Below are positions 1 through 30,473 of a stretch of DNA of 32,000 bases, piece after piece (positions within the stretch are counted from its first letter, which is position 1; the number at the start of each line of letters is the position of its first letter). The translations under genes were made by a program, and so were the position numbers. A model generated the notes under the pieces. The model searched no databases. It saw only the letters and a program-made list of their open reading frames with translations, and was not told where the DNA came from. The stretch is taken from positions 3,240,001-3,272,000 of the forward strand of contig NC_008312.1 of the NCBI RefSeq assembly GCF_000014265.1, written 5' to 3'. Source of the DNA: Trichodesmium erythraeum IMS101. Lineage in GTDB: Bacteria > Cyanobacteriota > Cyanobacteriia > Cyanobacteriales > Microcoleaceae.

Positions 1-1135
1 CAATTAGGTCAAAAAACTTAGTTAGTTCAGAAAGTTTATTTAGTTTAATTCCTACGGTTTTATTTAGCCCTAATTCATAATCATCTGTGTGATAAAAATC
101 TACCACATTACCTTGATTAGAGTTTAAATTTTCCCATTTTCTTTGCCAAGCTCCCCCTAAATCTTGAGCTGTATATTTTAACCTTTCAGCTAAACGAAAA
201 GTAACAATATATTGCTTACACATTTTTGCAGGACGGTTGAGCTTTGTTACCTCCAGCCAATCAAAATAAGAGTTACTTTCTATAAGCAAATTAGTATCTA
301 AAAATAACTCTATCCTCAAGTCTTTACTGCCAATTTTTTTCATTCTCTTATTGGATTCGTCTATCAGTTCTGTTAATTTTTTAGATAGATATTCCCGTTC
401 AATCAAGTCTTTTTCTTGAATATTACGGATTAATTGACTAGACCAAAACCAACTTTGTATTTGTAAAGAACTATAATTCTTTTTCTTAAGCTCAATCAAC
501 AAATAAGATTCTAGTAACTTGGGATTTTGGGTATCAGGTGAAGATTTTCTAAAATTTGGTGTTGCTGTTTCCTTAAACTCAGAATATCCAAAAAAATTAC
601 CGTATTCTTCTAGCCATTTATCTAGGGTTTTTTGTAGATTTGAATCAGAAACTTGTTGTTGAATTCCTACTACAAATGGAATAATAAGCCGATATTTTTT
701 TAGGGGAATAATACGATTTAGTTGAGTCAAAATATCATCAATATTCTTAACTGTTTTATCTGCCATTTCAGGGCGACATGATAAGTATATTTTTTCTAAT
801 TTTTCAAAAGATTGATTCTGTAAATACTCTCCCAAATCATTAATTGCTTTATCTTCTTTATTCCTAGAACCCGATAAGTTTGTCTGTTCTTGTCTGTCAG
901 TCTCAAACTCATTAAAAGCCTTAGGATTGATTTCTTGAATTTCATTTAGTAAATCATCTATTTTTTCGTGTTTATCAATATAATCAAATAAAATTCGGAA
1001 TCTTTGATTTTTACTTTGTCCATTTATAAATTGGCTATAAACATCATGAAAGCTATAAAAAACTAAATCTTCAAATTCGTCTGGTCCTAGAGCTTTGTTA
1101 ATTAAATTCCGAATAAGTTTAAGATCATATTTCAT
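1..1135 (-). CDS. Effector-associated (death-like) domain protein, C-terminus beyond the window edge; the body is possibly a VMAP-C-like module
   Basis: The minus-strand frame is open from the ATG at 1135-1133 to position 1. It is absent from the ORF track because no stop lies in the window. The first ~80 aa (MKYDLKLIRNLINKALGPDEFEDLVFYSFHDVYSQFINGQSKNQRFRILFDYIDKHEKIDDLLNEIQEINPKAFNEF) align position by position with the N-terminus of the adjacent 661-aa ORF. The remainder (..DLRIELFLDTNLL..DWLEV..IVTFRLAERL..GAWQRKWENL) resembles VMAP-C-type modules from memory only. Confidence 0.6.
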   Translation of the reverse strand, partial: MKYDLKLIRNLINKALGPDEFEDLVFYSFHDVYSQFINGQSKNQRFRILFDYIDKHEKIDDLLNEIQEINPKAFNEFETDRQEQTNLSGSRNKEDKAINDLGEYLQNQSFEKLEKIYLSCRPEMADKTVKNIDDILTQLNRIIPLKKYRLIIPFVVGIQQQVSDSNLQKTLDKWLEEYGNFFGYSEFKETATPNFRKSSPDTQNPKLLESYLLIELKKKNYSSLQIQSWFWSSQLIRNIQEKDLIEREYLSKKLTELIDESNKRMKKIGSKDLRIELFLDTNLLIESNSYFDWLEVTKLNRPAKMCKQYIVTFRLAERLKYTAQDLGGAWQRKWENLNSNQGNVVDFYHTDDYELGLNKTVGIKLNKLSELTKFFDLI

Positions 1136-1213
1136 TATAAACAAACAAATAAAAAAACAATGTAATAGACTAATTAATCACCAAACAAAATGATAACTAA
1201 TAACTAAAATATC

Positions 1214-3199
1214 TTACTGCCGCATAATCCAATAACCCCCCTCTTCCGACGGTTCTAACCGACCTCTTCGCTGCCCTGGGGAAGTATTATTAATTAATAA
1301 GTCCCGTATATCTTCAAGTACCAAACGAGCATCAGCAAAATAACCATGTCCTAATAAAGTTAAATCTATCTTAGAAACTTTTACCGTGTCTATTCCTTCT
1401 ACAACAGTAACAGGGGGGAAAAAACCAGCTCGGCCATGCTGATGAATAAGCGCTGAAGTTGCTAAGGCTTTGTCTTTTGATGATATGTATAATGTAGTTC
1501 GTTCTGCTAATTGATGATATCCTTTAGCTAACTCTTTAAACAAGTCAATATCTACATCTGGAGCGGCTAAAATAATTTGCCCAAAAGCAATATTAGTTAT
1601 TGTTTGAACTTGAGAAATAATTCTTTGGACTGCTCTGAGTAAACCTCGGTTTCCCATACTATGAGCAATAATATGAATTTTCTCAATGTCCGTTTTTTCG
1701 GCTAGGTTGAGTAAAAATTCTGTCATGTACTTTTCGCTGGCTTCAATACTTGCCTCGTCTACCGGATATGCTGATAATTTCCCTTGAGATGGCCAACTAT
1801 AAAAGGCTGTAATTCCTGGCACTTGCAGGTCAAACCCCATTTGTGCGGCTCTAATAGCTGCATCTTCAAAATTGACGTTGTATCCATGAACAAAGACTAA
1901 AGCAGACCTTTCATTTATTTCATGGTCTTTTAATTCTTCGTTGATATTTTCCCAAAATAGTTCTTTTTCCAGAATTTGCAAACTTTGAAAATGTAGTTTG
2001 AGGCGATCGTCTTTGAAAGTAATTAATCTTTTCCACAAAGGGGAACCTATAGAGCCTATTTTATGAGATTTAGGAACAGCTACTTGACAAATACCATAGT
2101 GAAGTTTGTCATCTCTTTTTCCGGAAAAACCTTTGGATATATTATTTGTATCTACAGGTTTTCTGTTGGTACCAAACCATAAAGGATATATAGTTGCTGT
2201 TGTTTCTTTAGTATCTTTTAAAATCAGAGATCTTTTGACTTTTACGGTTTCTTTTTTCTTTATTGCTTTCTTTGTTACGGCTTCTTTTGAAGTCAAATAA
2301 CCGTTGGTTTGATGACTTCTTAAACTGACAGTTTCTGACTCTAATAATGATGTATCAAAAGGAATAAAATGAGGAATTGGACTATCAGGTAATCTTAAGC
2401 GTTCAATTCCATTTATACCTAGTTGAAAAGCTTGATAATAGCTCCTTTGATATGCTAAACCTTGATAAAATTCTTCGGCAAATATCAAAGCAGAATCATC
2501 ACCAATCTCTTTTTTCATGCCAATAACACAACCTACCTGGTGAGCGACTGCATCAGCTTTTTTCAGAGAAAAACAGGCATTAAATACAACACATTCTATA
2601 GGTTTTCCATCTTTTCTAACAATAGATAATAATTCTGATAATGTTTCGAGGGATAAAACCTCTGCCTCACCTTGACGGTTGTTTAAAATTATTTCACCTT
2701 GAGAATTACCATGACCGCTAAAGTGAAGAATTCTAGGCTCATATTTCAGCAAATATTGAGATAAATCTTCTATAAAAGCATTTTCTTCTCCATAAACAAT
2801 ATAATTTTTTCCAAATTCTGTCTGCTGTAGTTTTTCCCTAATTAATTCAGTTTCTTTTTTTAATTGTAGTGGCTGTGTAGTTGTAGGGTTTGCTGCTAAA
2901 ACCAAAACATCACATTTTTCAATTGGAGGCGGAGGGGGATTTTCTCCTAATTTTGACTCATACTCTTGATAAACTTTTGGATTAATATTTTTAATGCCTT
3001 CAAGTAACCGCTCAATTTCTCTATGTTTGTCAGCATATTCAATTAAAATTCTGACTCTTTGCTTTTTATTTTGTCCATTTGTAAATTGGTTATAAACATC
3101 AGGAAAATAATCATAAACTAAGTCGTTAAATTCTTCTTCGGGTAGATCTTGATTAAGTAATTCCCGAATGACTTTTCTGAGTCTGAAATTATATAACAT
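1214..3199 (-). CDS. Three-module effector protein: N-terminal effector-associated domain, CHAT (caspase-fold) protease, and C-terminal DUF900-type alpha/beta hydrolase
   Basis: 661-aa ORF. Residues 1-85 form the EAD-like helical domain, followed by a PPPPP linker. The CHAT dyad context is ILHFSGHG (His163, nt 2711-2713) and VVFNAC (Cys209). The C-terminal half has VFVHGYN, the nucleophile elbow AHSMG (Ser514), AAPDVD and LLGHGY, which is typical of the DUF900 esterase/lipase family. Confidence 0.85.
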   Translation of the reverse strand: MLYNFRLRKVIRELLNQDLPEEEFNDLVYDYFPDVYNQFTNGQNKKQRVRILIEYADKHREIERLLEGIKNINPKVYQEYESKLGENPPPPPIEKCDVLVLAANPTTTQPLQLKKETELIREKLQQTEFGKNYIVYGEENAFIEDLSQYLLKYEPRILHFSGHGNSQGEIILNNRQGEAEVLSLETLSELLSIVRKDGKPIECVVFNACFSLKKADAVAHQVGCVIGMKKEIGDDSALIFAEEFYQGLAYQRSYYQAFQLGINGIERLRLPDSPIPHFIPFDTSLLESETVSLRSHQTNGYLTSKEAVTKKAIKKKETVKVKRSLILKDTKETTATIYPLWFGTNRKPVDTNNISKGFSGKRDDKLHYGICQVAVPKSHKIGSIGSPLWKRLITFKDDRLKLHFQSLQILEKELFWENINEELKDHEINERSALVFVHGYNVNFEDAAIRAAQMGFDLQVPGITAFYSWPSQGKLSAYPVDEASIEASEKYMTEFLLNLAEKTDIEKIHIIAHSMGNRGLLRAVQRIISQVQTITNIAFGQIILAAPDVDIDLFKELAKGYHQLAERTTLYISSKDKALATSALIHQHGRAGFFPPVTVVEGIDTVKVSKIDLTLLGHGYFADARLVLEDIRDLLINNTSPGQRRGRLEPSEEGGYWIMRQ

Positions 3200-3420
3200 A
3201 CGCTTTTTAAGTATTAATTATTAGGTGAACTCCGACGGCTTCTGGAAAACTAGACAAAGCTAGAAATTTGCTGTCGGTCATGGGCAACTGCAAATCAGTA
3301 AATCTCTTTAATTAGAATTATATTCTATCAATAAATGACTTATTCAAGACTTGCCTAAAGATATTCCATGAATAGGAAGGCTGTCACCAGGGGCAAATGA
3401 TGTACAAGGTAAATGGTGAA

Positions 3421-3439
3421 AATTATGTAGTGCGGGCAT
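3421..3439. repeat. Copy of a short dispersed repeat (aattatgtagtgcgggcat), degenerate palindrome version
   Basis: The 19 nt are identical to 23255-23273. The second copy continues into a perfect 8-bp-stem palindrome. This copy has a decayed right arm (tgcgggcattttctcccg). Confidence 0.6.
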
Positions 3440-3603
3440 TTTCTCCCGGTGAGGGTGGCTTTTGGTAAACTACGCTTTTACAACCAAAGCTTTGTCGAGA
3501 GGTTCGATGCAAAGTTCCTATATGCAAGGTCTCTGCTGTGGTGGACGGAGATGAAAAATGCTGGTGTTTTTCTTCGAGGCTAGTTTTTTTCTTCTAACTC
3601 ATA

Positions 3604-3631
3604 GCTGAGTGCTGACTGCTGAGTGCTCACA
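3604..3631. repeat. Heptamer tandem repeat (STRR-like): gctgagt gctgact gctgagt gctcaca
   Basis: Four consecutive 7-nt units are read directly from the sequence. Short tandemly repeated heptamers are a known feature of filamentous cyanobacterial intergenic DNA. Confidence 0.6.
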
Positions 3632-3793
3632 GTCCCTGTACCTATTTCCTGTGACTAAGGTCTAAGTATTTAGGGGGATGTGATATCAGTTGAGAGCATC
3701 AATAAGTTTAAACTTGACATCATACTCCACGTTACATTACAAAAATTACTGCTTCATTGCTTTCAGCGTAATACATTGTAGTATTGCATGATG

Positions 3794-3822
3794 GCAAAAA
3801 ATTTCGACTCGCCAAAGGCGAG
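3794..3822 (-). terminator. Putative intrinsic terminator of the orthocaspase gene
   Basis: On the minus strand a GC-rich 6-bp stem (ctcgcc ttt ggcgag, 3808-3822) is followed by tcgaaatttttt. It lies ~35 nt downstream of the stop and after a gggcaaaa tandem octamer (3831-3857). Confidence 0.4.
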
Positions 3823-3856
3823 GCTAAATAGGGCAAAAGGGCAAAAGAGCAAAGGG

Positions 3857-5767
3857 CTATTCAGGAGTCCTGGGGGGGAAACTCACAAGACGAAAACCAA
3901 AATTGGAGCTGACCACCACGACCGAGACATAGTAGCCGCGGCTCGCAGAGCGACACCACCCAGGATAGTTGAGCCAGGAGCCGCCACGAAGCACTCTACC
4001 GCTACTATCGCCTCCATTTACCCAAGCACTTCCATCAACAGGTGCTCCATCATAATTACTATGCACAACATCCTGACACCACTCCCAGACATTCCCATGC
4101 ATGTCATATAGACCAAAAGCATTAGGTGGAAACTCACCTACAGGAGTTGTTTGTTCTCTATATTCTCCTTTTGGTTCATCAGCATAAGTCTCTGAAGCTC
4201 TATAATTAGCTAATTCTCCTGTGATAGTTTCTCCAAAATAAAAAGGTGTAGTTGTCCCAGCACGACAGGCATATTCCCATTCTGCTTCACTCGGTAGTCT
4301 ATAGTCTCTTCCTGTTTTCTTAGAGAGCTTTTGACAAAATTCTGTAGCGTTATTCCAACTTACTCTTTCCACAGGGCGATTTTTTCCTTTAAATTTCGAA
4401 GGATCATTTCCCATTATTGCTTGCCACTGTTGTTGAGTAACGACATACTTTCCCATCCAAAATTCTGGCACATCTACATGATGTTGCGGACCTTCATTAT
4501 CACTTCTCTGTGCTTCCGTCTCTGGAGACCCCATCAGAAAACTACCACCGGGTATTTTTACCATTTCCAGAGTAACTCCATTACCTAAATTTTCTATCAT
4601 TACTTCTGCTTCACCTTCAGAGCGGCTTATTATTTCTCCTTTCCTGTTAACTTTAGGAGTCGCAAATGTATGAATAGTAATTTTTGGCTGTGACTTTGTT
4701 TTTATTTGTGAGTTTGGTTCTAACTTCCGTTGTGACTGTAGTGAAGTTTGAATATTTGAACCTTCTAATACTTCTGTTGATCTTGGTTGTTGAGTTTCTG
4801 AAACCGGTAAATTCTGAAAATAACCTAGATCTAACTGTGGGGTGGAAACCAACTGAGATCTAAACCGATCAACAGCAATTTTCTGCAGAGCCTTAACTGC
4901 TTCAAGATCCAAACCTACCTCTAAAACTCTTATCCATAGTTGTTCTGCCCAATTAAAATCTCCATTTGTTTGAGCTCTGTAAGCGTCAATTTTCAGAGTA
5001 GAAACATCAGTTTTTGTTGCATACTTCGGCATTAAAATTAAATGAGACTTTTCAATAGGGTCAGCAATAATACGAGGGGTCTGTCGTTTTCCTTCCTTTT
5101 GAGCTAGCTCTTGCACCCGATACTTCAGATATTCATTCAGTCTTTCTGCAGTTGCTTTTTGACCCTTACTACCTAACCCCTCTAATAACGCATAAGTAAA
5201 AACTCCCTGTTGCAACTCTTCTAATTCCCAAGAACGTTCATTTGGACTACAAGAAAAAATAGTTACTATCCCCTTTTCACGAGCTTCTTGTTCTGTTTGC
5301 CTTCCTAGTCCTTCTCCCCCTTTTCCCCCATCACTTTTGTTTCTACAAGCATCCAATATTAGAACTATATTATCTGCTCCAGATTTTTGCAGTTGTTGAA
5401 TAATATAGTCAACAGAAATTCCACTTCTTTCAACATTTGAATGACCATCAATAGGAATTAAATAATCAATATTATTATTCTCTCTATGACCATGGCCGCT
5501 AAAAAAAAACCAAAGGTTATCACCAGTTTTCAGAGATAGTTTTTTAACTTCATCTTCTAACACCAATTCTAAGCGGGAACGAGTTGGGCGAGTTGAAGCA
5601 CCATTAATTTTTGGAGAATTATCTGACAAGTAAAAAACGTCATCAAAATCTGCTTCGTCGAGCAAAAAATCCCTCATTTTTTTAGCGTCATTAGCTGCAT
5701 ATTTTAGAGGAGTCAAAAACTCATATTCCTGAACTCCTATAGTAATTGCTATATTTTGATTGGTCAT
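3857..5767 (-). CDS. Orthocaspase (peptidase C14) fused to a C-terminal FGE-sulfatase / C-type-lectin-fold domain
   Basis: 636-aa ORF. The caspase dyad context is WFFFSGHGH (His92) and LILDACRN (Cys141). The C-terminal ~270 aa carry FGE-family motifs (IPGGSFLMGSP, VDVPEFWMGKYVVTQQQW, RLPSEAEWEYACRAGT, GLYDMHGNVWEWC, RVLRGGSW, GFRLV). Confidence 0.9.
   Translation of the reverse strand: MTNQNIAITIGVQEYEFLTPLKYAANDAKKMRDFLLDEADFDDVFYLSDNSPKINGASTRPTRSRLELVLEDEVKKLSLKTGDNLWFFFSGHGHRENNNIDYLIPIDGHSNVERSGISVDYIIQQLQKSGADNIVLILDACRNKSDGGKGGEGLGRQTEQEAREKGIVTIFSCSPNERSWELEELQQGVFTYALLEGLGSKGQKATAERLNEYLKYRVQELAQKEGKRQTPRIIADPIEKSHLILMPKYATKTDVSTLKIDAYRAQTNGDFNWAEQLWIRVLEVGLDLEAVKALQKIAVDRFRSQLVSTPQLDLGYFQNLPVSETQQPRSTEVLEGSNIQTSLQSQRKLEPNSQIKTKSQPKITIHTFATPKVNRKGEIISRSEGEAEVMIENLGNGVTLEMVKIPGGSFLMGSPETEAQRSDNEGPQHHVDVPEFWMGKYVVTQQQWQAIMGNDPSKFKGKNRPVERVSWNNATEFCQKLSKKTGRDYRLPSEAEWEYACRAGTTTPFYFGETITGELANYRASETYADEPKGEYREQTTPVGEFPPNAFGLYDMHGNVWEWCQDVVHSNYDGAPVDGSAWVNGGDSSGRVLRGGSWLNYPGWCRSASRGYYVSVVVVSSNFGFRLVSFPPRTPE
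3899..3994 (-). other. Candidate DGR variable region (VR) at the 3' end of the orthocaspase-FGE gene
   Basis: The stretch is abruptly GC-rich and adenine-poor on the coding strand. It encodes VLRGGSWLNYPGWCRSASRGYYVSVVVVSSNFGF and is dominated by NNC/NNT codons (CTC AAC TAT AGC GGC TAC TAT GTC GTC GTC AGC TCC AAT). These sit between the invariant scaffold residues GGSW, CRSA.R and GFR. No template repeat or DGR RT is present in this window. Confidence 0.4.
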
Positions 5768-6520
5768 CGTTTCTCTGCTGTGATTTAAATTTCAACTTAG
5801 TAGCACTTTTTCCTGACAGATAATTCTGTTGAACCAGGTTAGCGATCGCTAACTCAGGTTTAACTTAAAATCAGCGATCGTACAAATTAGAAAATAAAAA
5901 TAGATTTTACTATTAATTTTATATACAAACAACCCTGTTAGATATGACATTAATAAATTATAGTAATATATTTTAAAATATTGAGTCAGGTTAACTCTAT
6001 CAATTATTTTTTTGAGAAACACAAATAACCATAATTTAATTCAAGAAAGTTGAGACTAAAAGCAATTTGAATAAATAAAAATAATTGAGTAACTCCTGAA
6101 ATTGTGCAGTTTTGTTTAATAAGTAAACTACATTTAGGATTTTTTCAGCAAAACCAGACTAACCTTGGACAAAAAGTCAGTAAATAAACTAATTTTGATC
6201 ATTCTAATATTGTAGCGGCCTCTGAAAATAGATAAGAACATAGATTAGAGTCCGGTCCAAATTATCCTTATAAACCTTTAACTAACAGAGCATTACCACC
6301 TACTTATTTATTAAGTTTTGTAAATTTAGTATTTTAGTAGTTTAGTGGTTTAGTGGTAAACAGCAAAATATAGAAAATGATAGAAACCAAAAATTATTAA
6401 GATTTAAGAAGCCAAAATCAACAGAATTAGTATTCAGATATAGTCTACTTGTTAAATTTTCAACCTGATACCTAACATCTGACATCTAAAACATGACATA
6501 TAACGCATTAGACCTCAAAC

Positions 6521-6625
6521 CTAACAGCTAAAACGGAAGAAAACCTAAAACTTAACACCTAAAACGGAAGAAAACCTAAAACGGAAGAAAACCTAAAACC
6601 ATAATAAAATCTAAAACCTAACACC
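6521..6625. repeat. Tandem/interspersed repeat block built on ctaaaac, including three copies of the 17-mer ctaaaacggaagaaaac
   Basis: The 17-mer occurs at 6528-6544, 6559-6575 and 6576-6592. Extra ctaaaac units occur at 6545-6551, 6593-6599 and 6611-6617. The block ends ~45 nt upstream of the mtnA start. Confidence 0.75.
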
Positions 6626-6668
6626 AGGGTGATATATTGTATTTACGTTCATCAAAAAACCATGGAAA

Positions 6669-7730
6669 ATGATATATAAATTCAGAAAAGTAAACCCCAT
6701 TACTTGGAAAAATGACCATGTTGTATTAATTGATCAAACTTGCTTACCAGAAGAATATAAAACAGTCGAAATTAGCAGCTATGAAGAAATGGCAGTAGCT
6801 ATCAAAACAATGATAGTTCGTGGAGCACCAGCCATCGGTGTATCAGTAGCTTATGGAATGTATTTAGGAGCAAGAGAAACTGTCACAAATGATAGAAATG
6901 AATTCTTAAAACAGCTAGAAGAAATAGCTGTAATTTTCCGAAGAACTCGCCCAACTGCTGTTAATTTATTTTGGGCAATAGAGCGAATATTAAAAGTAGC
7001 AAATAAAACTAATGGAACTGTAAAAGAAATTCAAGAAGCGGTATTAGAAACTGCTAAAAAAATTCATCAAGAAGACTTAGAAACCTGTAAAAATATAGGC
7101 GATCGCGCAGTTGAAATTTTACCAACTAAACCCGAAAAATTGAACATATTAACCCACTGTAATGCAGGAGCTTTAGCAACAGCAGGCTATGGTACAGCAT
7201 TAGGAGTTATTCGTTCCGCCTGGCGAGATGGAAGGTTAGGCAAAGTCTACGCTGATGAAACTCGTCCCCGTCTCCAAGGAGCAAAACTTACCACCTGGGA
7301 ATGTGTCCAAGAAAACATACCCGTCACCCTAATTAGCGATAACATGGCAGCCCACTGTATGAAACAAGGCTTAATTCATGCTGTAGTAGTAGGAGCTGAC
7401 AGAATAGCAGCAAATGGAGACACTGCCAATAAAATTGGTACTTATAGCCTAGCTATTGTCTCTCAAGCACATAATATTCCCTTGTATGTAGCTGCACCCC
7501 TATCAACTATAGACTTTAAAATCTCTGATGGTAGTGAAATACCCATAGAAGAAAGGGATACAAAAGAAATATATCAAGTAGGAGAAACACGCATTTGTCC
7601 AAAACAAGTAGAATTTTATAACCCGGCATTTGATGTTACACCTGCAGAACTAATTACAGGAATAATGACAGAACATGGTACAGTTCTCCCAGGAGAACTA
7701 GAACAATTTCGGGTCAAGCAGTTAGTTTAA
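6669..7730 (+). CDS. mtnA: S-methyl-5-thioribose-1-phosphate isomerase (methionine salvage)
   Basis: 353-aa ORF with the eIF-2B alpha/beta/delta-like MtnA signature: [75 protein letters not shown]. Confidence 0.9.
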
Positions 7731-8683: not shown

Positions 8684-9941
8684 GTGCGACTCGTTGGCCA
8701 AGAACCTAGGACAACCTAGTATAAATGGCCATCCTTAGTCAATACATGAGGATAACCTCGACTAATGGATAACTCTTATGTCCTTGGTGGTGAAATTCCA
8801 TCCGCCTTGTTGTTGGGTTGACAGCATAGGCCACAGGGTAGAGACTGAACATCAATCCCTGAAGCTGGCTTAAATGGGGTCAAAGCTTTAACTATCAAAT
8901 AAGTGAGACTTCTAGCAGAGACTAACAAGTGAACGAACAGGAAGGTAATTAAACTCTCGTAACATTCATTCATCCCAAAGATAGCTATGGGTTGTAGGCC
9001 AAAAGTCAGAGGGTCTTTGGATAATAATGTGTTCAAGCTATTATCAACAACCATACCGGATCCTCCGGGAGATTTTACCTCACTAAATTAGTCGCAATAA
9101 AGGCATAAGGGAACGAGGAAACCTCTTTAAGACACCCAAGAATATAGGTCAAAAACTTGGGAAGCCATTCAAGGTCAATCTACGCAAAGCCCGTAGGTCT
9201 TAAGGAGAGTAGGATTGGGTAAAAAAGCACAATTTATGCAGACGTACCCACTGTTAGACGTAATGTAAGGCAATAATTAGCAATAAAAAAAGCCAAAACA
9301 CTAAAAAACATTTAGGGTCACCTAAACTATTTTTAAGTGTGGCATGAAATACAAAAGATATAGGTTCCTAAAGCAGTTTTAATCCAAATTTGAAGTGGAA
9401 AAATATAAACTGGAAATTAGTCCTGAAAAATGTATTTAAGTTGTAAAAGTTAACTTACAGAGCATCCCGTTGTGGCAAACTCCGCAATATGCGTAAATAC
9501 CAAAGACTTCTGAGCAAAAGCTATTACCCTAGGCTGTTAGCTTTTAGGCACGTGACGCAAAGTTACCATAGCAGAAATAGTAAATATCCAGGGGTAAAAA
9601 AAAGAAGTCACAATACTGTCAAAGCAGCAAAAGAGTAAACATGCATCTTGTGGATTATATTTTTGACCAAGGGTATAAATTGAAACAGACCACATCGTTC
9701 CTAGGTTTGAAAGTGGTGACAACACCTATAAAAATCAACAGTTGTTGTACCAACATTGCCACAACGTTAAGACTACCAAAAATTTAAAAGCAAATTATTA
9801 GGACTCATTAAGTCCAAAGTAGAACTTTAAGGATGTGCCCTTGAATAGGGACGTTTAAGAGAGGAGCCGTGATGAGGTGAAAGTCTCACGTCCGGTTCTG
9901 AAGACAAGTCGGATCAGGTAACTTATCTGGCTTAGTTTAAC
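8684..9941 (+). mobile_element. Group II intron, ORF-less (intron-encoded protein degenerate or deleted), interrupting thyX
   Basis: The 5' end is GTGCGAC (8684-). The EBS1 candidate gttcaag (9031-9037) is exactly complementary to the last 7 exon nt, cttgaac (8677-8683). Domain V (gagccgtgatgaggtgaaagtctcacgtccggttc, 9864-9898) has the AGC triad and a GAAA loop. The 3' end is ..tttaac (AY). Removal fuses GHYGCLE|HPQITFNCGFFPHSVMQQARTHRIG in frame. The domain IV region (9192-~9560) is homologous to the IEP 5' region at 22525-22900, but ATG has become ATA and only ~0.3 kb remains before domain V. Confidence 0.85.
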
Positions 9942-11362
9942 ACCCTCAAATTACTTTTAATTGTGGATTTTTTCCCCATAGTGTTATGCAGCAAGCAAGA
10001 ACTCATAGAATAGGTTGCTGTTTGTCGGGCAATACAAAAGTTAGATTTAGGTATTCGTCTTCATCCCAAGAAGCGAAATATTATGAGGAAACAATTGAAA
10101 AATTAGCTAACTTATGGCATTACGGGAGCAAAAATCAATATACTTCTAAAGATGCAAAATGTATGCAAGAAAATATATCTAGCCGTAATATTTTTACTCT
10201 AGATACCCAAACTAACCAAATTGTTTCTAGCAAAATTACCAACATATATATTAATGGTGAAAAAGAAACTTACACAATAAAAACTGTTTCTGGTAAGGAA
10301 ATAAGAGCTACCCTAGAACACCAGTTTTGGACTAACCAAGGGTGGAAACGATTAAAAGATTTTAATAACAGCACTCAATTATGTGAAGTGCAATTAGCTG
10401 GAAATAAAGTTACTCCACAAGAAGTTAAATTTCTCGAAAAAGAAATGTTTAATGAAAAGTGGATCCCAGTAAGAAATTATGACGGATATAAAATTTATAG
10501 CTTAGATATTTTGAATTCTTACCTTATTCAAAAAGAGAATAAAGAGCATTCACGGAGCAAATCTAAAAATTGTTTACTTCCCAATTTAAATTATGGAATT
10601 AGGTATGATCGACTTTCAGAAGTAAATATAAATAGATTAGTAATGGAAAACTTGAAATTATTAGGAGAATACAAGGAACTTGAAGTCAGACATTTAAATG
10701 AGAATAGTTTTAACAACAAGCCAAAAAAATTTGCCTGGAATTCTAGCAAAAGCGACCAAATTGACAATATCAATAACAATAGTTTCTCTGATAATTCTGG
10801 TGTTTTTGTAGAGATAGAATCTATTGAAAAATTTGGCAAAGAAATTACTTATGATCTTGAAGTCGAACACCCAGAACATAATTTTATAGCCAATGGTTTA
10901 GTTGTTCATAATTCTTTCGATGTACAAAGTTATCGGTTTTGTTCGGGAAAAGTTATTGCAGTAGCAGATGGAAAAACTGATATAGAAACTGCTTTTTACT
11001 TACGTCCAGTCGGAGAATATTCTGACCGCAAAGGTAAAAAATATTATTATTCCGCCGAACAACGAGAAAAAGATTTATATTGGTGTTTAGAAGCAGCTAA
11101 GAAATACAAACTTGATATGGAACTTGGAATGTCTGAAGAACATGCCAGAGGAAAAATTCCTTTTGATTATCGTCAGCATTTTGTTGTCAGTTTTAATTGT
11201 CGTAGTTTGCTACATTTTTTAGATTTACGTTTTAAAAAGAATGCTCAATTAGAAATTCAAAAACTTTGTGAATTAATGTGGCCTCATTTTCAAGATTGGG
11301 TTCCCAATATAGCAGAATGGTATGAAAAAAATAGACTTAAAAAAGGCAAATTAGCACCTTAA
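9942..11362 (+). CDS. thyX: ThyX exon 2 (contains an in-frame intein at 10019-10912)
   Basis: The exon starts with AC, completing a His codon begun in exon 1. The extein sequence is HPQITFNCGFFPHSVMQQARTHRIGC ... SFDVQSYRF..ARGKIPFDYRQHFVVSFNCRSLLHFLDLR, matching the ThyX RHR-X7/8-S region and C-terminal motifs. Confidence 0.85.
10019..10912 (+). mobile_element. Intein (298 aa) within the ThyX signature motif, with a central HNH/NUMOD4-like homing endonuclease remnant
   Basis: Block A is CLSGNTKV at the N-terminus and block B is RATLEHQFWT. Blocks F/G are EITYDLEVEHPEHNFIANGLVVHN, followed by +1 Ser (SFDVQS). The central region EKWIPVRNYDGYKIY ... INRLVMENL ... LEVRHLNENSFNN parallels NUMOD4 + HNH_3 endonucleases. 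The N-terminal boundary could instead be one codon earlier (10016). Confidence 0.85.
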
Positions 11363-11478: not shown

Positions 11479-11907
11479 ATGAAACTGAAAATCAAAAAGT
11501 TAGATGAATTAGCAATTATTCCTTTTTATGCTCATAAAGGAGATGCTGGATTAGATTTATTTTCTATTGATGAGTCAACAATTAATCCAGGGGAAAGTAA
11601 ACTGATTCATACAGGTATTTCCATAGAATTACCATCAGGAACAGAAGCACAAATTCGCCCGCGAAGTGGATTAGCATTAAAACATCAAATTACTGTTTTA
11701 AATACCCCCGGAACTATCGACGAAACTTACCGAGGAGAAATAGGAATAATTCTGATAAATCATGGCAAAAATTCTTTTCAAGTAACAAAAAGAATGAAAA
11801 TAGCCCAAATGGTAATAACGTCAGTTTTATCTGTTAAGGTAGAAGAAGTCAATCAATTAAGTACAACTCAAAGAGACATTAATGGATTTGGTTCAACAGG
11901 AACATGA
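11479..11907 (+). CDS. dut: dUTP diphosphatase
   Basis: 142-aa ORF with the trimeric dUTPase motifs [36 protein letters not shown] and GFGSTG. Confidence 0.9.
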
Positions 11908-12446
11908 GAGAACAAATATATCAAAGACCAAGCTGGGATGAATACTTTTTAATGATTGCCAAATTAGCTGCTACTCGCTCAACTTGTTTAGCTTTTCCAG
12001 TAGGAGCAGTTATAGTTAAAGATAAACAAGTTTTGGCAACTGGTTATAATGGGCCTCCTTCTGGTTCTAATCATTGTACAAGCCAAGGTTTTTGTTATCC
12101 TGAATTAAGTAGTTGTGATGCCAGTAAAGCTTTACCATCTCGTTCTGTTCATGCAGAAGCTAATGCTATTGCTCAAGCGGCAAAACATGGTATTTGTACG
12201 AATGGAGCAATTATTTATGTCACCTTAGAACCCTGCATTTATTGCTTAAAATTAATTATTTCTTCTGGTATTAAAGAAGTTTTTTATGAGACGTCTTTTA
12301 ATAGTGGGGGAAAAGCGGCTTTAAGAGATTTATTTATTCAAGATGGTTTAGTTTCCCTTAAGCAAGTTTCTCTCTCAGATACAATTGCTAAAAAAGCAGC
12401 AACATTTCTACTTGATCCTACTTCTATTAGTAAAGTTTCTCGGTAG
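11904..12446 (+). CDS. dCMP deaminase (ComEB/cytidine-deoxycytidylate deaminase family)
   Basis: 180-aa ORF with [20 protein letters not shown] and the zinc motifs HAEANAI and EPCIYC. The start overlaps the dut stop in ATGA (11904-11907), implying translational coupling. Confidence 0.85.
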
Positions 12447-13979: not shown

Positions 13980-15836
13980 TTATTTTTCAACATCTTGAAT
14001 AGAACAAGATTCTTTTCTATTTTTATTCAAAAAGTCTCTAATTTTTATCGGAGAAGAACTTGCATCTGGAATTTTAGGATGATCTCGTTGAAACAAAGAT
14101 TCATTGTATGCTGCTTCAGTAATTTCTAACAAAGCCATAACATTTTTTTTGATATTGTTAAGCTCTTGTCTGATTTCCTCCCAGTCTAAACCTTCTTCTA
14201 TAAATATAATGAGTAAATTAATCCAACCACCCCAAAATTTTGAGTAAATAAAAGAAGTATTTCTTGTTTTATTTCTACTTTTTAAGTTATCTTCATCTCT
14301 ATTAAAAGTTGAAAAAATATAGTTAAAATAACGCTCAAATAAAGCTGTTCCTTTTTCTACTAATGTTTCTTTTTCAGATAATTTTTCTATAGTTGAATCA
14401 AATAATTTCTCATATCCATCTTTTTTTAAAAGAGTATTCCTAACTTTGGCTTTTGTTAACTGTTCGATCTTTGTAATGTTTGTAATTTTTTTAATTGCCT
14501 CAATAATTATTCCAGCATCAATAATACCTTTATTTGCTTTATCCGACGTTAGATTAAAAAATTGCTTAAAGTTTTGTCTAGTATTTAAATTGACAATAAT
14601 CTTTGTAGCAATTACTTTTGGCTCTTTACTTCCCAATTCATAAGCAATTTTATCTGTATGAGTTATTTCTACTTTTGTTTGATTCATATTGATTTCTAGA
14701 AATACTTTAGCGCTAAACTTATTAATAATTTCTTGATTCTCAGTTTTAAAATCAACTGCTGTCACCATTATTTTACAATCATTTTGCATAATTGATTTGA
14801 CCTTTTGATCCGCATAAGAAAATAATCTATGTTGACCATCAATTACAGAAATACTTCCATACTTTCTAGGAATATACAAACAACCATCGTTACGTTCGTC
14901 ATATGTACATTCTTTAGATAGAACCACCAAAATATTAGATGGGAAAATAAAATCAGGATTTGTTAATAAATTTTCCCTGATTTTTTTTAATTTATCGGGT
15001 ATTAAAGGTCTTTGATAATTATAGGTTGAACTATCCTCTAATAAAGGAAGTTCATCTTGTCTATATACACGAACTATATTTAGTATCTTGTATGGGGATA
15101 TAGTAAATGTATACAAATCTGATAAAGGTGCATCATTATCTTTTTTACTAATTTGCTTATTAGTACTTCTAATTAGTTGATGATATTTCTTATCAATTGA
15201 AATAGAAGTTTTATCTATCTCGTCATCGATTTTAAATAAATTTAAAAAATAGTTTCTAGTGTATTCTCCTATATCGTCAGAATATTCCTTTAATCTCATA
15301 TAATCTGATTTATAAAATTTAACTATATCCCTCGCTTCTGGTAAATCAATTCTGCCTTCTCCATTGCCTTCTTCTACAGTTGTAGTAATGAAAAATCCTT
15401 TAATTGACTGTATATTTCTAAATTTTCTTATATGTTCTGTTTTTATACCTAATTTTTGCCAAATATAATCGGAAAATTCTAACTTTTTAATTATATTGAT
15501 TTGATTAATAAACTTTTTATACTTTGTATTGATTTTTCCTTCATCTCTTGATGTTATTTCACCTATTAAACAAACTTTATCTATAGGTATCATGTAATCA
15601 AATTCAAGATGCTCGTTGTTTGGATATTCTGGTGCTATATCTTTTAACTGTACTTGACCTAAATCATTAAAACAATCTAATCCAATAGCTTCAAAAATAC
15701 ATTTTCCTTCTTGTTCGAGTTCTTTTCCTGATTTTCCTTGTAAAGATTTATTCATATTTTGCAATGATGTATAGCTAAAAAATCCAAAATTTATATAAAT
15801 ATAAATATAAATATTAATATTTCCTCTGTACATCAC
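13980..15836 (-). CDS. DGQHR-domain (DndB-like, ParB/sulfiredoxin-fold) protein with an unassigned ~230-aa N-terminal domain
   Basis: The three hallmark motifs are YQRPL (aa 274-278), VIDGQHRL (DGQHR = nt 14826-14840) and FLEINMNQTKV (aa 379-389). The start is uncertain. The GTG/ATG at 15836/15833 directly abuts AGGAGG but adds a low-complexity NIYIYIYI leader. The ATG at 15755 (MNKSLQGKSG) is the conservative alternative. Confidence 0.8.
   Translation of the reverse strand: MMYRGNINIYIYIYINFGFFSYTSLQNMNKSLQGKSGKELEQEGKCIFEAIGLDCFNDLGQVQLKDIAPEYPNNEHLEFDYMIPIDKVCLIGEITSRDEGKINTKYKKFINQINIIKKLEFSDYIWQKLGIKTEHIRKFRNIQSIKGFFITTTVEEGNGEGRIDLPEARDIVKFYKSDYMRLKEYSDDIGEYTRNYFLNLFKIDDEIDKTSISIDKKYHQLIRSTNKQISKKDNDAPLSDLYTFTISPYKILNIVRVYRQDELPLLEDSSTYNYQRPLIPDKLKKIRENLLTNPDFIFPSNILVVLSKECTYDERNDGCLYIPRKYGSISVIDGQHRLFSYADQKVKSIMQNDCKIMVTAVDFKTENQEIINKFSAKVFLEINMNQTKVEITHTDKIAYELGSKEPKVIATKIIVNLNTRQNFKQFFNLTSDKANKGIIDAGIIIEAIKKITNITKIEQLTKAKVRNTLLKKDGYEKLFDSTIEKLSEKETLVEKGTALFERYFNYIFSTFNRDEDNLKSRNKTRNTSFIYSKFWGGWINLLIIFIEEGLDWEEIRQELNNIKKNVMALLEITEAAYNESLFQRDHPKIPDASSSPIKIRDFLNKNRKESCSIQDVEK
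15795..15818. repeat. Hexamer microsatellite (ataaat x3 plus attaat) in the 5' leader or extension of the DGQHR gene
   Basis: Read directly: ataaat at 15795-15800, 15801-15806 and 15807-15812, then attaat at 15813-15818. Confidence 0.7.
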
Positions 15837-29948: not shown

Positions 29949-30473
29949 TTATGCTAATATAAAAGATCGAATTCTTAGTCGCACTAAACCACATATTGTT
30001 AAGATTACTTTTTGATAATTATTATCTTTTAATCTGAATCTTTCTCTAGCAATTCCAAATATTTTAATTAATCTTATTACATGTTCTACAAATATTCTCT
30101 TTCTGGCTTTTTCTTGATTTTCTTCTTTGATTTCTAGCGGCATTTCTTTTTTTCTTGGTTTCTTTTTTGGTGTAGTAGTTCTTTCTACTCCTTCATAAGC
30201 TTTATCTCCTTGAAATTTTTGTTTTTTATCAAATTTATCCTGTTGTTTTCTTAATATTTTTACATCACTTACTGGACCTTTTTCTCCTACTATTACATCT
30301 ACTATTTCTGTTCCTTTTGGTGTCGTTATTATTTGATTTTTAAAAGTATGATTTTTATTTTTTCCTGAGTAATATTTTTCTTGGTCTTTATATTCACTTG
30401 GTCTTTCTCTACTTTGTTCTGTACTATCTACAATTAATTCTAATTCTGTTAATATCTCCTTTACCCATTCCAA
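29949..30473 (-). CDS. IS transposase orfB (DDE catalytic part)
   Basis: 174 aa; LIVDSTEQ..ERP..YYSGKNKNHTFKNQ..GDKAY..RIFVEHVIRLIKIFGIARERFR is the DDE_Tnp_4/IS5-type catalytic core. It overlaps orfA at the A12 tract in a different frame. Confidence 0.8.
   Translation of the reverse strand: MEWVKEILTELELIVDSTEQSRERPSEYKDQEKYYSGKNKNHTFKNQIITTPKGTEIVDVIVGEKGPVSDVKILRKQQDKFDKKQKFQGDKAYEGVERTTTPKKKPRKKEMPLEIKEENQEKARKRIFVEHVIRLIKIFGIARERFRLKDNNYQKVILTICGLVRLRIRSFILA

What the first reader, a model, noticed from the sequence alone, without database searches (positions are those of the whole stretch)
1..3199. Two adjacent genes share an N-terminal death-like effector-associated domain: candidate adaptor-effector pair of an NTP-dependent conflict system
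The first ~80 residues of the partial ORF (1-1135) and of the 661-aa ORF (1214-3199) are clearly homologous: L.K.IR.L....L..EEF.DLV...F.DVY.QF.NGQ.K.QR.RIL..Y.DKH..I..LL..I..INPK.Y.E. The remainders are unrelated. One is a VMAP-C-like body and the other is CHAT plus hydrolase. The genes are co-directional and 79 nt apart. In the published framework of effector-associated domains (Kaur, Burroughs, Iyer, Aravind 2020), such shared N-terminal modules mediate homotypic recruitment of effectors to a sensor or NTPase. The sensor or NTPase part (vWA/MoxR or STAND) would lie left of the window.
Basis: partly seen in the sequence, partly recalled or inferred. Interest (0 to 1): 0.75.

Follow-up and report, generated by a model that had tools for sequence, protein, structure and literature searches.

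The report
Shared adaptor domain in VMAP operon
Two neighbouring genes of the bloom-forming cyanobacterium Trichodesmium erythraeum share a small helical "adaptor" domain that probably docks a caspase-like protease/hydrolase onto the scaffold of an ATPase-controlled cell-suicide or immunity system; this kind of system was already predicted from genome comparisons in 2020, so the finding is correct but not new.

Summary
Both genes lie on the minus strand. Their first ~75 residues are 54% identical (E 2e-21), and both score above Pfam's cut-off for EAD7.

- **Upstream gene** (3199..1214, Tery_2076): EAD7 + CHAT caspase-like protease + DUF900 alpha/beta hydrolase, with all catalytic residues invariant.
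- **Downstream gene** (1135..1, Tery_2075, cut by the window edge): EAD7 + VMAP-M1 + VMAP-C.
- **Left of the window:** the same genome encodes a VMAP-type MoxR ATPase. Two inserted genes (cupin, TauE) follow, then a vWA-type protein that ends in an FGS lectin-like domain.
- **DGR link:** in a wild Trichodesmium relative that lectin-like domain carries a clean diversity-generating-retroelement signature.
- **Conservation:** the order protease, VMAP, MoxR, vWA-FGS recurs in Anabaena, Nostoc, Cyanomargarita and Merismopedia.
- **Fold:** an AlphaFold model of EAD7 (pLDDT 89) is a six-helix bundle. Its nearest solved structures are CARD, pyrin and death domains, but the matches are not statistically significant.

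This is a textbook case of the VMAP ternary system and the "EAD coupling principle" of Kaur et al. 2020. Local peculiarities are minor. Function remains inferred, not shown. Interest is low to moderate.

The parts
1214..3199 (-). Gene B = Tery_2076 (ABG51317.1), 661 aa: EAD7 + CHAT + DUF900, the stand-alone protease/hydrolase module
   Evidence: ORF; Pfam domains; exact match to the T. erythraeum IMS101 protein.
2978..3169 (-). EAD7 adaptor domain of gene B (residues 11-74)
   Evidence: Pfam PF19960, 37.2 bits (cut-off 32). AF2 model of residues 1-85 has pLDDT 88.7 and six helices. Nearest PDB folds are CARD, PYD and DD.
2411..2911 (-). CHAT (caspase-like cysteine protease) domain, residues ~97-263, with catalytic His163 and Cys209
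   Evidence: Pfam CHAT E 1.6e-10. Closest solved structure is 8TL0, a CHAT-domain protein cited in the type III CRISPR SAVED-CHAT literature (E 3.5e-15); the GHG and NAC motifs align. H163 and C209 are invariant in 65 homologues.
1316..1948 (-). DUF900 alpha/beta-hydrolase domain, residues 418-628, with Ser514, Asp548 and His618
   Evidence: Pfam PF05990 E 2.9e-44. S514 (in HSMGN), D548 and H618 are invariant in 65 homologues.
1136..1213 (-). 78-nt intergenic spacer between gene B and gene A. No terminator-like site lies in it, so the genes are probably co-transcribed.
   Evidence: Sequence; promoter/terminator scan.
1..1135 (-). Gene A = Tery_2075 (ABG51316.1), the VMAP scaffold. Its first 378 of 460 codons are in the window; the last 82 codons lie left of it.
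   Evidence: Translation. Full-length protein from L001, which is 99.98% identical to the window at DNA level. Protein identity.
923..1114 (-). EAD7 adaptor domain of gene A (residues 8-71)
   Evidence: Pfam PF19960, 39.0 bits; 54% identical to the gene B copy.
491..820 (-). VMAP-M1 variable helical middle region (residues 106-215)
   Evidence: Pfam PF19963, 40.4 bits, on the partial protein. It was not listed when the full-length protein was scanned. It is present in the precomputed annotation of orthologues. AF2 predicts it helical with pLDDT ~85.
1..415 (-). N-terminal part of the VMAP-C domain (from residue ~241), cut by the window edge
   Evidence: Pfam PF20028: 23.6 bits on the truncated protein and 60.6 bits on the full-length protein.
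3857..5767 (-). Upstream neighbour Tery_2077: caspase (Peptidase_C14) + FGS lectin-like domain. It is probably a separate caspase/FGS module in the same island, and it is not conserved next to the system in other genera.
   Evidence: Pfam; identity. Pfreundt 2014 (PMC4143802) lists it as a DGR target with a caspase domain. It is absent upstream of the system in L011-L014.
3825..4020 (-). 3' end of Tery_2077 plus its 3' UTR: a DGR variable-repeat-like segment and a C/T-rich tail shared with the two other FGS genes of the locus
   Evidence: Alignment A1; comparison with the TR of Trichodesmium MAG_R01.

Best explanation
Window 1-3199 holds the first two genes of a VMAP-type vWA-MoxR 'ternary' conflict system of Trichodesmium erythraeum IMS101, Tery_2076 to Tery_2071.

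Components:
- Tery_2075 is the VMAP scaffold (EAD7 + VMAP-M1 + VMAP-C).
- Tery_2076 is a free-standing enzyme module: a CHAT caspase-like protease fused to a DUF900 alpha/beta hydrolase.
- Both carry the same small six-helix, Death-fold-like EAD7 domain at the N-terminus.

Proposed mechanism:
1. A trigger is recognised, either a phage or other invader component, or a damage signal. Recognition most probably happens through the DGR-diversified lectin-like FGS domain of the vWA protein Tery_2071, or alternatively through the variable VMAP-M region.
2. The MoxR AAA+ ATPase Tery_2074 uses ATP to remodel the vWA-VMAP complex.
3. EAD7-EAD7 homotypic binding holds or oligomerises Tery_2076 on the VMAP, so the CHAT protease is activated by proximity.
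4. The protease and the attached hydrolase then cleave protein and ester or lipid targets. This gives growth arrest or death of the affected cell and protects the rest of the filament or colony.

Shown here: domain identities, intact catalytic residues, gene order, conservation, the DGR signature and the predicted fold.

Inferred only: EAD7-EAD7 binding, the direction of signalling, the substrates and the biological outcome.

The confidence of 0.66 is for this whole reading, including the adaptor-recruitment step. Confidence that the locus is a VMAP/EAD7 system in the sense of Kaur et al. 2020 is about 0.95.
For: - **EAD7 pair:** both copies score above the Pfam cut-off and are 54% identical. 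They are the only two in the window.
- **VMAP:** VMAP-C scores 60.6 bits on the full-length protein.
- **MoxR:** it lies directly downstream, with intact Walker A (GKPGTGKS) and Walker B (LLIDEIDK). It also has the N-terminal W-x-I-F and PPxWRxF motifs that Kaur et al. give as specific to VMAP-system MoxRs.
- **vWA component:** it matches NCBIfam SAV_2336_NTERM at 341 bits and has a C-terminal FGE-sulfatase/FGS domain. The SAV_2336 N-terminus is a CoxE-type vWA according to PMC2441816.
- **Synteny:** the order is conserved in Anabaena cylindrica, Cyanomargarita, Merismopedia, Nostoc UHCC 0870 and Trichodesmium MAG_R01.
- **Portability:** in L016 the same EAD7-CHAT-DUF900 module sits beside an EAD7-NACHT protein, so the adaptor pair moves between NTPase platforms.
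- **Within-locus similarity:** the EAD7 copies in one locus are as similar or more similar to each other than to orthologues, and the Nostoc pair share indels.
- **Catalytic residues:** H163/C209 and S514/D548/H618 are invariant in 65 homologues. The CHAT domain is homologous to the 8TL0 CHAT protein of the SAVED-CHAT literature.
- **Fold:** the EAD7 AF2 model has pLDDT 88.7 and six helices. By my count, 19 of the top 50 PDB neighbours are CARD, PYD or DD, with best TM 0.68.
- **DGR:** the MAG_R01 locus carries bAvd + RT + TR, and all 11 TR/VR mismatches in the vWA-FGS gene fall on TR adenines.
- **Literature:** the architecture matches the published description of EAD coupling and of the caspase + alpha/beta-hydrolase pairing in VMAP systems.
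Against: - No experiment on any VMAP system was found in the searched literature. Function is therefore entirely inferred.
- PADLOC has no model for the system.
- The vWA fold of Tery_2071 is not detected by Pfam, and the profile comparison with the Anabaena VWA_CoxE-like orthologue is weak. Its MIDAS-like motif is degenerate (EVNNS).
- Two unrelated genes (cupin, TauE) separate MoxR from the vWA gene in Trichodesmium. The vWA-FGS gene may therefore be transcribed separately.
- The Foldseek matches of EAD7 to Death-fold domains are not significant (E >= 0.7).
- The direction of signalling is disputed in the literature: Kaur 2020 versus Dore 2024.
- IMS101 has lost the local DGR cassette.
Confidence: 0.66

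Rival explanations
1. Same parts, but the system is a developmental or stress-death pathway rather than antiviral immunity. The MoxR-vWA-VMAP complex would sense an internal state such as iron or phosphate starvation or oxidative stress. It would then release CHAT and hydrolase activity as part of the caspase-like programmed cell death that ends Trichodesmium blooms, or as a cell-division or differentiation protease in the manner of HetF.
For: The caspase-domain protein Tery_2077 lies directly upstream. Pfreundt 2014 notes that Trichodesmium is one of few bacteria with a described PCD-like process and many metacaspases. The CHAT domain has a weak NCBIfam match to the cell-division protease HetF. 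These systems are strongly associated with multicellular bacteria.
Against: The vWA partner carries a DGR-hypermutated lectin-like domain, and hypermutation fits a changing external ligand better than a fixed internal signal. The EAD7 domains evolve fast between close relatives, with an excess of non-synonymous changes, which is typical of conflict systems. The two readings are not mutually exclusive.
Confidence: 0.2
2. The shared N-terminal domain is only a by-product of a local duplication or gene conversion. It might act as a common localisation or regulatory tag, and the two proteins do not bind each other through it.
For: The two coding segments are 73% identical at DNA level. Their synonymous divergence in Trichodesmium is low (dS ~0.5) compared with 0.9 to saturated for the same pair in other genera. 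That is compatible with recent conversion.
Against: The pairing of one copy on VMAP (or on NACHT) with one copy on the enzyme module is kept across distant cyanobacteria in which the copies have diverged to saturation. The domain has no enzymatic or DNA-binding signature and is predicted to adopt a classic homotypic-interaction fold. Low GC and codon bias could also depress dS.
Confidence: 0.08
3. A housekeeping MoxR-vWA chaperone system. It would mature or insert a cofactor into an enzyme, as CoxD/CoxE or RavA/ViaA do. Here it would be linked to sulfur metabolism, with cupin, the TauE sulfite exporter and 'formylglycine-generating enzyme' genes in the cluster.
For: Cupin_2 and TauE genes sit between the MoxR and vWA genes, and three FGE-sulfatase-family domains lie in the locus. 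The database names read 'formylglycine-generating enzyme family protein'.
Against: The cupin + TauE insertion is found only in Trichodesmium. In four other genera MoxR is followed directly by vWA-FGS. The FGS domains carry DGR variable repeats, which marks ligand-binding lectin-fold domains rather than enzymes. The MoxR has the VMAP-specific N-terminal motifs. VMAP, EAD7 and a caspase-like protease have no place in a maturation chaperone.
Confidence: 0.04

Closest known systems
VMAP-type vWA-MoxR ternary conflict systems with EAD coupling (Kaur, Burroughs, Iyer, Aravind 2020, eLife 9:e52696, PMC7159879; Pfam EAD7 PF19960, VMAP-M1 PF19963, VMAP-C PF20028)
   Same: [quoted passage not shown]
- VMAP, then MoxR, then vWA gene order.
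- MoxR with the WxhapG-like and PsWRxa motifs.
- A cyanobacterial vWA fused to a DGR-diversified FGS domain.
- A caspase-like peptidase accompanied by an alpha/beta hydrolase.
- A filamentous host, which that paper's organism table scores as multicellular.
   Different: - The caspase-like (CHAT) and alpha/beta-hydrolase domains are fused in one polypeptide and coupled through EAD7. The paper describes the caspase as fused to VMAP, with the hydrolase as a neighbouring gene.
- The paper groups EAD7 with the 'effector-recruiting' EADs, whereas here it recruits the peptidase pair.
- Two unrelated genes (cupin, TauE) are inserted between MoxR and vWA in Trichodesmium.
- The local DGR cassette is deleted in strain IMS101.
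Death-fold (CARD/DD/PYD) homotypic recruitment of caspases in the animal apoptosome and inflammasome (Apaf-1 CARD with caspase-9 CARD)
   Same: A small six-helix N-terminal domain is present both on a caspase-family protease and on an NTPase-controlled platform. The best structural neighbours of the EAD7 model are BinCARD, CARD8, Apaf-1, ASC and NLRC4 CARDs (TM 0.55-0.68).
   Different: No sequence-level match to any Death, CARD, PYD or DED model appears (E up to 1). The Foldseek E-values are not significant. The NTPase is a separate MoxR AAA+ protein rather than a STAND domain on the same chain. The protease is CHAT rather than a classical caspase. Binding has not been tested.
Experimentally studied bacterial caspase-like immune proteases: type III-B CRISPR SAVED-CHAT (closest solved chain 8TL0) and the TIR-activated caspase-like protease (bioRxiv 10.1101/2024.10.24.620036)
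   Same: The CHAT domain is homologous (E 3.5e-15), with the His and Cys motifs aligned. In those systems the protease is an effector or relay switched on by an upstream sensor.
   Different: Those proteases are activated by a nucleotide second messenger that binds a fused SAVED or other sensor domain. Here there is no such domain, and activation is presumed to come from adaptor-mediated recruitment to a MoxR-vWA-VMAP complex. In addition, an alpha/beta hydrolase is fused to the protease.
Esr MoxR-vWA-beta-propeller threat-sensing pathway of Schaalia odontolytica (bioRxiv 2026, PMC13622651)
   Same: It is a MoxR + vWA pair coupled to a variable sensor protein. The preprint reports experiments showing that the pathway is required for a defence response.
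   Different: The third component is a beta-propeller filament protein, not a VMAP. The output is kinase/FHA signalling to an Esx secretion system, with no EAD-coupled protease.
Trichodesmium DGR with 12 FGE-sulfatase-domain targets (Pfreundt et al. 2014, PMC4143802) and DGR-diversified sensors of ternary systems (Dore et al. 2024, PMC10907252)
   Same: Tery_2077 is named as a target. The FGS genes of this locus share the VR-like 3' end. The vWA-FGS gene shows adenine-specific TR/VR mismatches.
   Different: In the text I read, Pfreundt 2014 did not connect the targets to a VMAP, MoxR or EAD7 operon. The locus-resident DGR cassette seen in MAG_R01 is a second cassette, distinct from the Tery_1728/1729 element.

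Membership tests
VMAP-type vWA-MoxR ternary system (Kaur et al. 2020) | A protein with the VMAP-C domain | tested here: met
   Pfam PF20028 scores 60.6 bits (cut-off 27) on full-length Tery_2075. The window-truncated protein scores 23.6 bits.
VMAP-type vWA-MoxR ternary system (Kaur et al. 2020) | A MoxR AAA+ gene immediately 3' of the VMAP gene, with the N-terminal WxhapG and PsWRxa motifs unique to these MoxRs | tested here: met
   A 324-aa AAA_5 protein starts 86 nt after the VMAP stop codon. WQIFNK and PPWRSF are present and conserved in 6 of 7 orthologues, and Walker A and B are intact. The first motif ends in K rather than G.
VMAP-type vWA-MoxR ternary system (Kaur et al. 2020) | A vWA-domain component with variable C-terminal domains | tested here: inconclusive
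   Tery_2071 matches NCBIfam SAV_2336_NTERM at 341 bits (cut-off 200) and has a C-terminal FGS domain. The SAV_2336 N-terminus was assigned to CoxE-type vWA in PMC2441816. However, Tery_2071 gets no Pfam vWA hit, the hhalign comparison with the VWA_CoxE-positive Anabaena orthologue is weak (E 0.02), and the MIDAS motif is degenerate.
VMAP-type vWA-MoxR ternary system (Kaur et al. 2020) | Strict 5'-to-3' gene order VMAP, MoxR, vWA | tested here: met
   The order is kept in all six loci. In Trichodesmium only, cupin and TauE genes are inserted between MoxR and vWA.
VMAP-type vWA-MoxR ternary system (Kaur et al. 2020) | The three components act as an NTP-dependent complex in biological conflict | not testable with these tools
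   No experimental study of a VMAP system turned up in the literature searches.
Effector-associated domain EAD7 / EAD coupling principle | Sequence membership in EAD7 | tested here: met
   PF19960 scores 37.2 and 39.0 bits against a cut-off of 32.
Effector-associated domain EAD7 / EAD coupling principle | One copy at a terminus of a core component, and a second copy on an enzymatic protein encoded by the adjacent gene | tested here: met
   Both copies are N-terminal, one on VMAP and one on CHAT-DUF900, 78 nt apart. The same arrangement is seen in 5 other genomes, and with NACHT as the core component in L016.
Effector-associated domain EAD7 / EAD coupling principle | A small, non-enzymatic, all-alpha domain | tested here: met
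   The AF2 model of 85 residues has six helices and pLDDT 88.7. Only two columns are invariant, both hydrophobic (L19, F32).
Effector-associated domain EAD7 / EAD coupling principle | Copies in adjacent genes are closer to each other than to copies elsewhere | tested here: inconclusive
   This holds for the Trichodesmium VMAP copy (49% against <=44%) and for the Nostoc pair, which also share indels. It does not hold for every locus: the Tery effector copy is closer to the Anabaena effector copy, at 61%.
Effector-associated domain EAD7 / EAD coupling principle | Homotypic physical interaction of the two copies | not testable with these tools
   Only monomer structure prediction was available.
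Death-fold superfamily (DD/DED/CARD/PYD) | Six-helix bundle superposable on known members | tested here: inconclusive
   By my count, 19 of the top 50 Foldseek PDB neighbours are CARD, PYD or DD. The best is BinCARD, with TM 0.68/0.62, rmsd 3.3 A and probability 0.96. All E-values are >= 0.7.
Death-fold superfamily (DD/DED/CARD/PYD) | Sequence or profile similarity to Death-like families | tested here: not met
   A Pfam scan at E <= 1 lists no Death, CARD, PYD or DED model for either protein. The only related weak hit is the bacterial adaptor GAAD.
CHAT / caspase-like cysteine proteases | Conserved catalytic His-Cys dyad in a caspase-like fold | tested here: met
   Pfam CHAT scores 41.4 bits. 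The domain aligns with 8TL0, with HF(S/I)GHG and NAC conserved. H163 and C209 are invariant in 65 homologues.
DGR target (variable repeat) | TR/VR pair whose mismatches fall on template adenines, with an RT and Avd nearby | tested here: met
   This was tested outside the window, for the vWA-FGS gene. In MAG_R01, bAvd + RVT_1 + TR are present, and all 11 mismatches fall on TR adenines. IMS101 lacks this cassette. For the in-window Tery_2077 VR only 24 of 53 mismatches to this TR fall on adenines, so it is not a target of this TR.

The most novel reading that the evidence does not exclude
This operon, together with the adjacent caspase-FGS gene Tery_2077, is a molecular trigger of the caspase-like programmed cell death that collapses Trichodesmium blooms. 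In this reading a retroelement-hypermutated lectin sensor signals through MoxR to a VMAP platform. A fast-evolving CARD-like EAD7 pair then docks and activates a CHAT protease/lipase. That would be a bacterial 'apoptosome' with an adaptive-like, diversifiable receptor. The excess of non-synonymous change in both EAD7 copies would reflect selection to keep cognate pairing private or to escape phage-encoded decoys.
Probability: 0.12. Interest if true: 0.75.

Novelty: already known. Interest (0 to 1): 0.28.

Why it matters
Read as a prediction, the locus adds nothing categorically new. The architecture, the domain families and the homotypic-adaptor hypothesis were published in 2020-2021, and public Pfam annotation already labels these very proteins.

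Its value is as a clean, compact example in an ecologically important organism. Trichodesmium blooms supply much of the new nitrogen in tropical oceans, and bloom collapse has been tied to caspase-like cell death.

The locus brings together, within about 10 kb:
- a metacaspase-FGS gene;
- a Death-fold-like adaptor pair;
- a CHAT protease/hydrolase;
- a MoxR switch;
- a DGR-diversified sensor.

That makes it a concrete target for biochemical tests of EAD7-EAD7 binding and of MoxR-dependent CHAT activation. No VMAP system appears to have been tested experimentally yet.

Tried and rejected
- **VMAP-C fold.** I modelled a full-length VMAP (P0122, 98% identical to Tery_2075). The model is only moderate (pLDDT 71, pTM 0.39, VMAP-C 55-79). 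Foldseek against PDB gave nothing significant (best E 0.05, TM ~0.1). The weak neighbours are RNase-H-like folds such as Ppx/GppA, EndoV, NurA and UvrC-C. I treat this as an untested lead at most.
- **vWA fold of Tery_2071.** Direct proof failed. There was no Pfam vWA hit even at E 10, no PDB sequence hit and only a weak hhalign match. The assignment rests on NCBIfam SAV_2336_NTERM plus the literature.
- **PADLOC.** It has no model for the system, only generic CHAT, caspase and AAA hits.
- **Genome-contig scan with gene B.** It returned just two more Trichodesmium MAG fragments. Synteny therefore came from exact-protein contig look-ups. One look-up (P0020) found nothing.
- **Profile search for more distant VMAPs.** It added only five sequences.
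- **Promoter and terminator scans of 1-6700.** Counts were at the level expected by chance and were not used.
- **Sulfur-metabolism or true-FGE reading of the cluster.** Considered and rejected; see the rival explanations.
- **dS/dN analyses.** They rest on small counts. The AT-rich codon usage of Trichodesmium may also depress dS.

Full report
**1. Observation**

The region holds two co-directional genes on the minus strand.
- Gene B runs 3199..1214 and encodes 661 aa.
- Gene A starts at ATG 1135 and runs off the left edge of the window, so 378 codons are visible.
- Their N-termini align without gaps over 74 residues at 54% identity, E 2e-21, and nothing else in the two proteins aligns.
- The coding DNA of these segments (902-1120 and 2957-3175) is 73% identical.
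- The spacer is 78 nt and has no terminator-like site.

The only corrections are the strand and a one-base difference in the spacer length.

**2. Identity of the parts**

Pfam assigns both N-termini to EAD7 (PF19960): 37.2 and 39.0 bits against a gathering score of 32.
- Gene B continues with a CHAT domain (E 1.6e-10) and a DUF900 alpha/beta hydrolase (E 2.9e-44).
- Gene A continues with VMAP-M1 (40.4 bits) and VMAP-C.

The window is 99.98% identical to a Trichodesmium erythraeum contig, L001. The proteins are exact matches to T. erythraeum IMS101 Tery_2076 (gene B), Tery_2075 (gene A) and Tery_2077 (the upstream caspase-FGS gene).

On the full-length 460-aa Tery_2075, VMAP-C scores 60.6 bits. 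VMAP-M1 was not listed for the full-length query, but it is recorded for orthologues. I regard it as present but borderline in HMMER's filters.

A custom HMM of the shared domain finds only these two copies in the 32-kb window.

**3. What lies left of the window**

In the same genome, 86 nt after the VMAP stop codon, comes a 324-aa AAA_5 ATPase, Tery_2074. It has:
- intact Walker A and B motifs;
- the two N-terminal aromatic/arginine motifs (WQIFNK and PPWRSF) that Kaur et al. describe as unique to the MoxRs of VMAP systems.

Then follow a Cupin_2 gene, a TauE gene and the 892-aa Tery_2071. Its N-terminal 500 residues match NCBIfam SAV_2336_NTERM at 341 bits, and its C-terminus is an FGE-sulfatase (FGS) domain. 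SAV_2336 itself was shown by HHpred to begin with a CoxE-type vWA domain (PMC2441816). The Anabaena orthologue hits Pfam VWA_CoxE at 1e-5.

I could not show the vWA fold of Tery_2071 directly, and its MIDAS-like motif is degenerate. That row of the membership test stays 'inconclusive'.

**4. Conservation**

The order EAD7-CHAT-DUF900, then EAD7-VMAP, then MoxR, then vWA-FGS recurs in:
- Anabaena cylindrica UHCC 0172;
- Cyanomargarita calcarea;
- Merismopedia glauca;
- Nostoc sp. UHCC 0870;
- Trichodesmium MAG_R01.

The EAD7-CHAT-DUF900 architecture is shared by about a hundred of the 120 listed cyanobacterial protein clusters. The cupin + TauE insertion is found only in Trichodesmium.

In a marine cyanobacterial MAG (L016) the same enzyme module, with an extra N-terminal caspase, sits next to an EAD7-NACHT protein instead of a VMAP. 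In Merismopedia a third EAD7 protein (NB-ARC + TPR) lies just upstream. The adaptor pair is thus portable between NTPase platforms, as the EAD principle predicts.

**5. The adaptor**

*Fold.* An AlphaFold2 model of residues 1-85 of gene B, built on a 38-sequence alignment, has pLDDT 88.7 and six helices. Foldseek against the PDB gives no significant E-value, which is expected for an 85-residue helical domain. By my count, 19 of the top 50 neighbours are CARD, pyrin or death domains. The best is BinCARD, with TM 0.68 and rmsd 3.3 A over 88 columns; others include Apaf-1, CARD8, ASC and NLRC4. No Death-family sequence model matches. 'Death-like' is therefore a supported fold-level resemblance, not demonstrated membership.

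*Similarity within loci.* Within a locus the two EAD7 copies are as similar or more similar to each other than to orthologues. The Trichodesmium VMAP copy is 49% identical to its neighbour and at most 44% to any other copy, and the Nostoc pair share indels.

*Rate of change.* T. erythraeum and MAG_R01 are 97.5% identical across the locus. Between them, the two EAD7 segments carry 33.5 non-synonymous and 3.5 synonymous changes. The catalytic domains plus VMAP-C carry 18 and 11 (Fisher p = 0.016). About 20 of the 35 amino-acid changes in VMAP fall in its first 80 residues. The paralogous pair has dS of about 0.5 in Trichodesmium, against 0.9 to saturated in other genera. That hints at gene conversion, although AT-rich codon usage is a caveat.

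**6. The enzymes**

His163 and Cys209 of CHAT, and Ser514 (HSMGN), Asp548 and His618 of DUF900, are invariant in 65 homologues. The EAD7 and linker regions are the least conserved.

The closest solved structure is 8TL0, a CHAT-domain protein cited in the type III-B CRISPR SAVED-CHAT literature (E 3.5e-15). The catalytic motifs align. Both enzyme domains are therefore probably active.

**7. The sensor and the DGR**

The three FGS genes of the locus share a conserved 3' end and 3' UTR. In MAG_R01 a bAvd + reverse transcriptase + template repeat cassette lies between the vWA-FGS gene and the 281-aa FGS gene.
- All 11 mismatches between that template and the vWA-FGS variable repeat fall on template adenines.
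- The IMS101-type allele differs from the same template at 24 positions, 19 of them adenines.
- In the IMS101-type sequence (L001) the cassette has been deleted.

Pfreundt et al. 2014 already listed Tery_2077 among 12 DGR targets and found the other RT of IMS101 to be a pseudogene.

The hypermutated lectin-fold domain on the vWA protein favours the model of Dore et al. 2024, in which vWA-lectin senses, MoxR relays and the VMAP-linked enzyme executes. The original proposal of Kaur et al. has VMAP sensing and its peptidase cleaving the vWA protein. Neither direction is shown.

**8. Mechanism, comparison and verdict**

The best-supported reading is an EAD7-mediated, Death-fold-like recruitment of a CHAT protease/hydrolase to a VMAP-MoxR-vWA complex, which ends in abortive cell death or arrest.

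This is the architecture that Kaur et al. 2020 described. They report VMAP N-terminal EADs duplicated on the adjacent gene's enzyme, and a caspase always accompanied by an alpha/beta hydrolase. T. erythraeum IMS101 appears in their organism table, scored as multicellular.

Local deviations are small:
- the caspase-like and hydrolase domains are fused;
- EAD7 recruits the peptidase pair, although the paper classes it with the effector-recruiting EADs;
- cupin and TauE are inserted between MoxR and vWA;
- the local DGR cassette is lost in the culture strain.

I found no experimental work on VMAP systems. A related MoxR-vWA-beta-propeller pathway has recent experimental support as a threat sensor.

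The finding is correct, well interpreted and already known in kind. Interest is 0.28.

Noticed in passing
window 3857-5767 (-), especially 3825-4020: Tery_2077 is a caspase (Peptidase_C14) + FGS protein. Its 3' end and 3' UTR resemble the DGR variable repeats of the two other FGS genes of the locus. It matches the MAG_R01 template poorly (24 of 53 mismatches on adenines), so it is probably served by the other Trichodesmium DGR (Tery_1728/1729 region; Pfreundt 2014) or is decaying.
   Followed up: partly
L015 19494-21136 versus L001 19463-19735 (left of the window): Trichodesmium MAG_R01 has a locus-resident DGR cassette (bAvd, RT, 137-nt TR) between the vWA-FGS gene and the FGS-281 gene. In the IMS101-type sequence (L001) about 1.6 kb is deleted, leaving a 49-aa Avd remnant. 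The culture strain therefore has a 'frozen' sensor.
   Followed up: partly
L001 14977-16396 (left of the window): Cupin_2 and TauE (sulfite-exporter family) genes are inserted between the MoxR and vWA-FGS genes, in Trichodesmium only. It is unknown whether they are passengers or take part in the system.
   Followed up: partly
window 9861-11362 (+): The thyX (Thy1) ORF carries an intein (Intein_splicing, residues 65-309). It is preceded at 9861-9941 by the 3' end of a group II intron (Rfam Intron_gpII, 47.5 bits; D5 model, 53.8 bits). The gene therefore appears interrupted at both RNA and protein level. dUTPase/DCD (11479-11907) and dCMP deaminase (11904-12446) follow.
   Followed up: no
window 13980-15836 (-): A 618-aa ORF has a weak DndB (DNA-sulfur-modification-associated) match (32.7 bits, cut-off 29.1). 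It may be another defence-related gene in the neighbourhood.
   Followed up: no
window 29949-30847 (-): An IS element transposase is split into an HTH_Tnp_4 ORF (30461-30847) and an overlapping DDE_Tnp_4 ORF (29949-30473). This could be a frameshift, either programmed or inactivating.
   Followed up: no
window 6463-6623: A short tandem or interspersed A/C-rich repeat (units of about 17 to 31 nt, such as AACCTAAAACGGAAGAAAACCTAAAAC) lies just upstream of the mtnA-like gene (6669-7730).
   Followed up: no
gene B residues 290-331 (window ~2207-2332, -): The linker between CHAT and DUF900 differs at almost every residue between T. erythraeum and MAG_R01 (dN/dS ~2), although the flanks are nearly identical. 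Much of this stretch appears to be gapped in most other homologues. It may be a compensated frameshift or a hypervariable linker.
   Followed up: no
L013 7963-9795 and L016 13105-15588: EAD7 is also found on STAND NTPases next to the EAD7-CHAT-DUF900 gene: NB-ARC + TPR in Merismopedia and NACHT in a marine cyanobacterial MAG. The same enzyme module may therefore serve more than one sensor platform.
   Followed up: partly
Tery_2075 residues ~209-285 (window ~281-509, -): In the moderate-confidence AF2 model, VMAP-C begins with a three-strand meander, then helix, strand, helix. Its weak Foldseek neighbours are RNase-H-like folds (Ppx/GppA, EndoV, NurA, UvrC-C). None is significant, and the fold of VMAP-C remains open.
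   Followed up: partly
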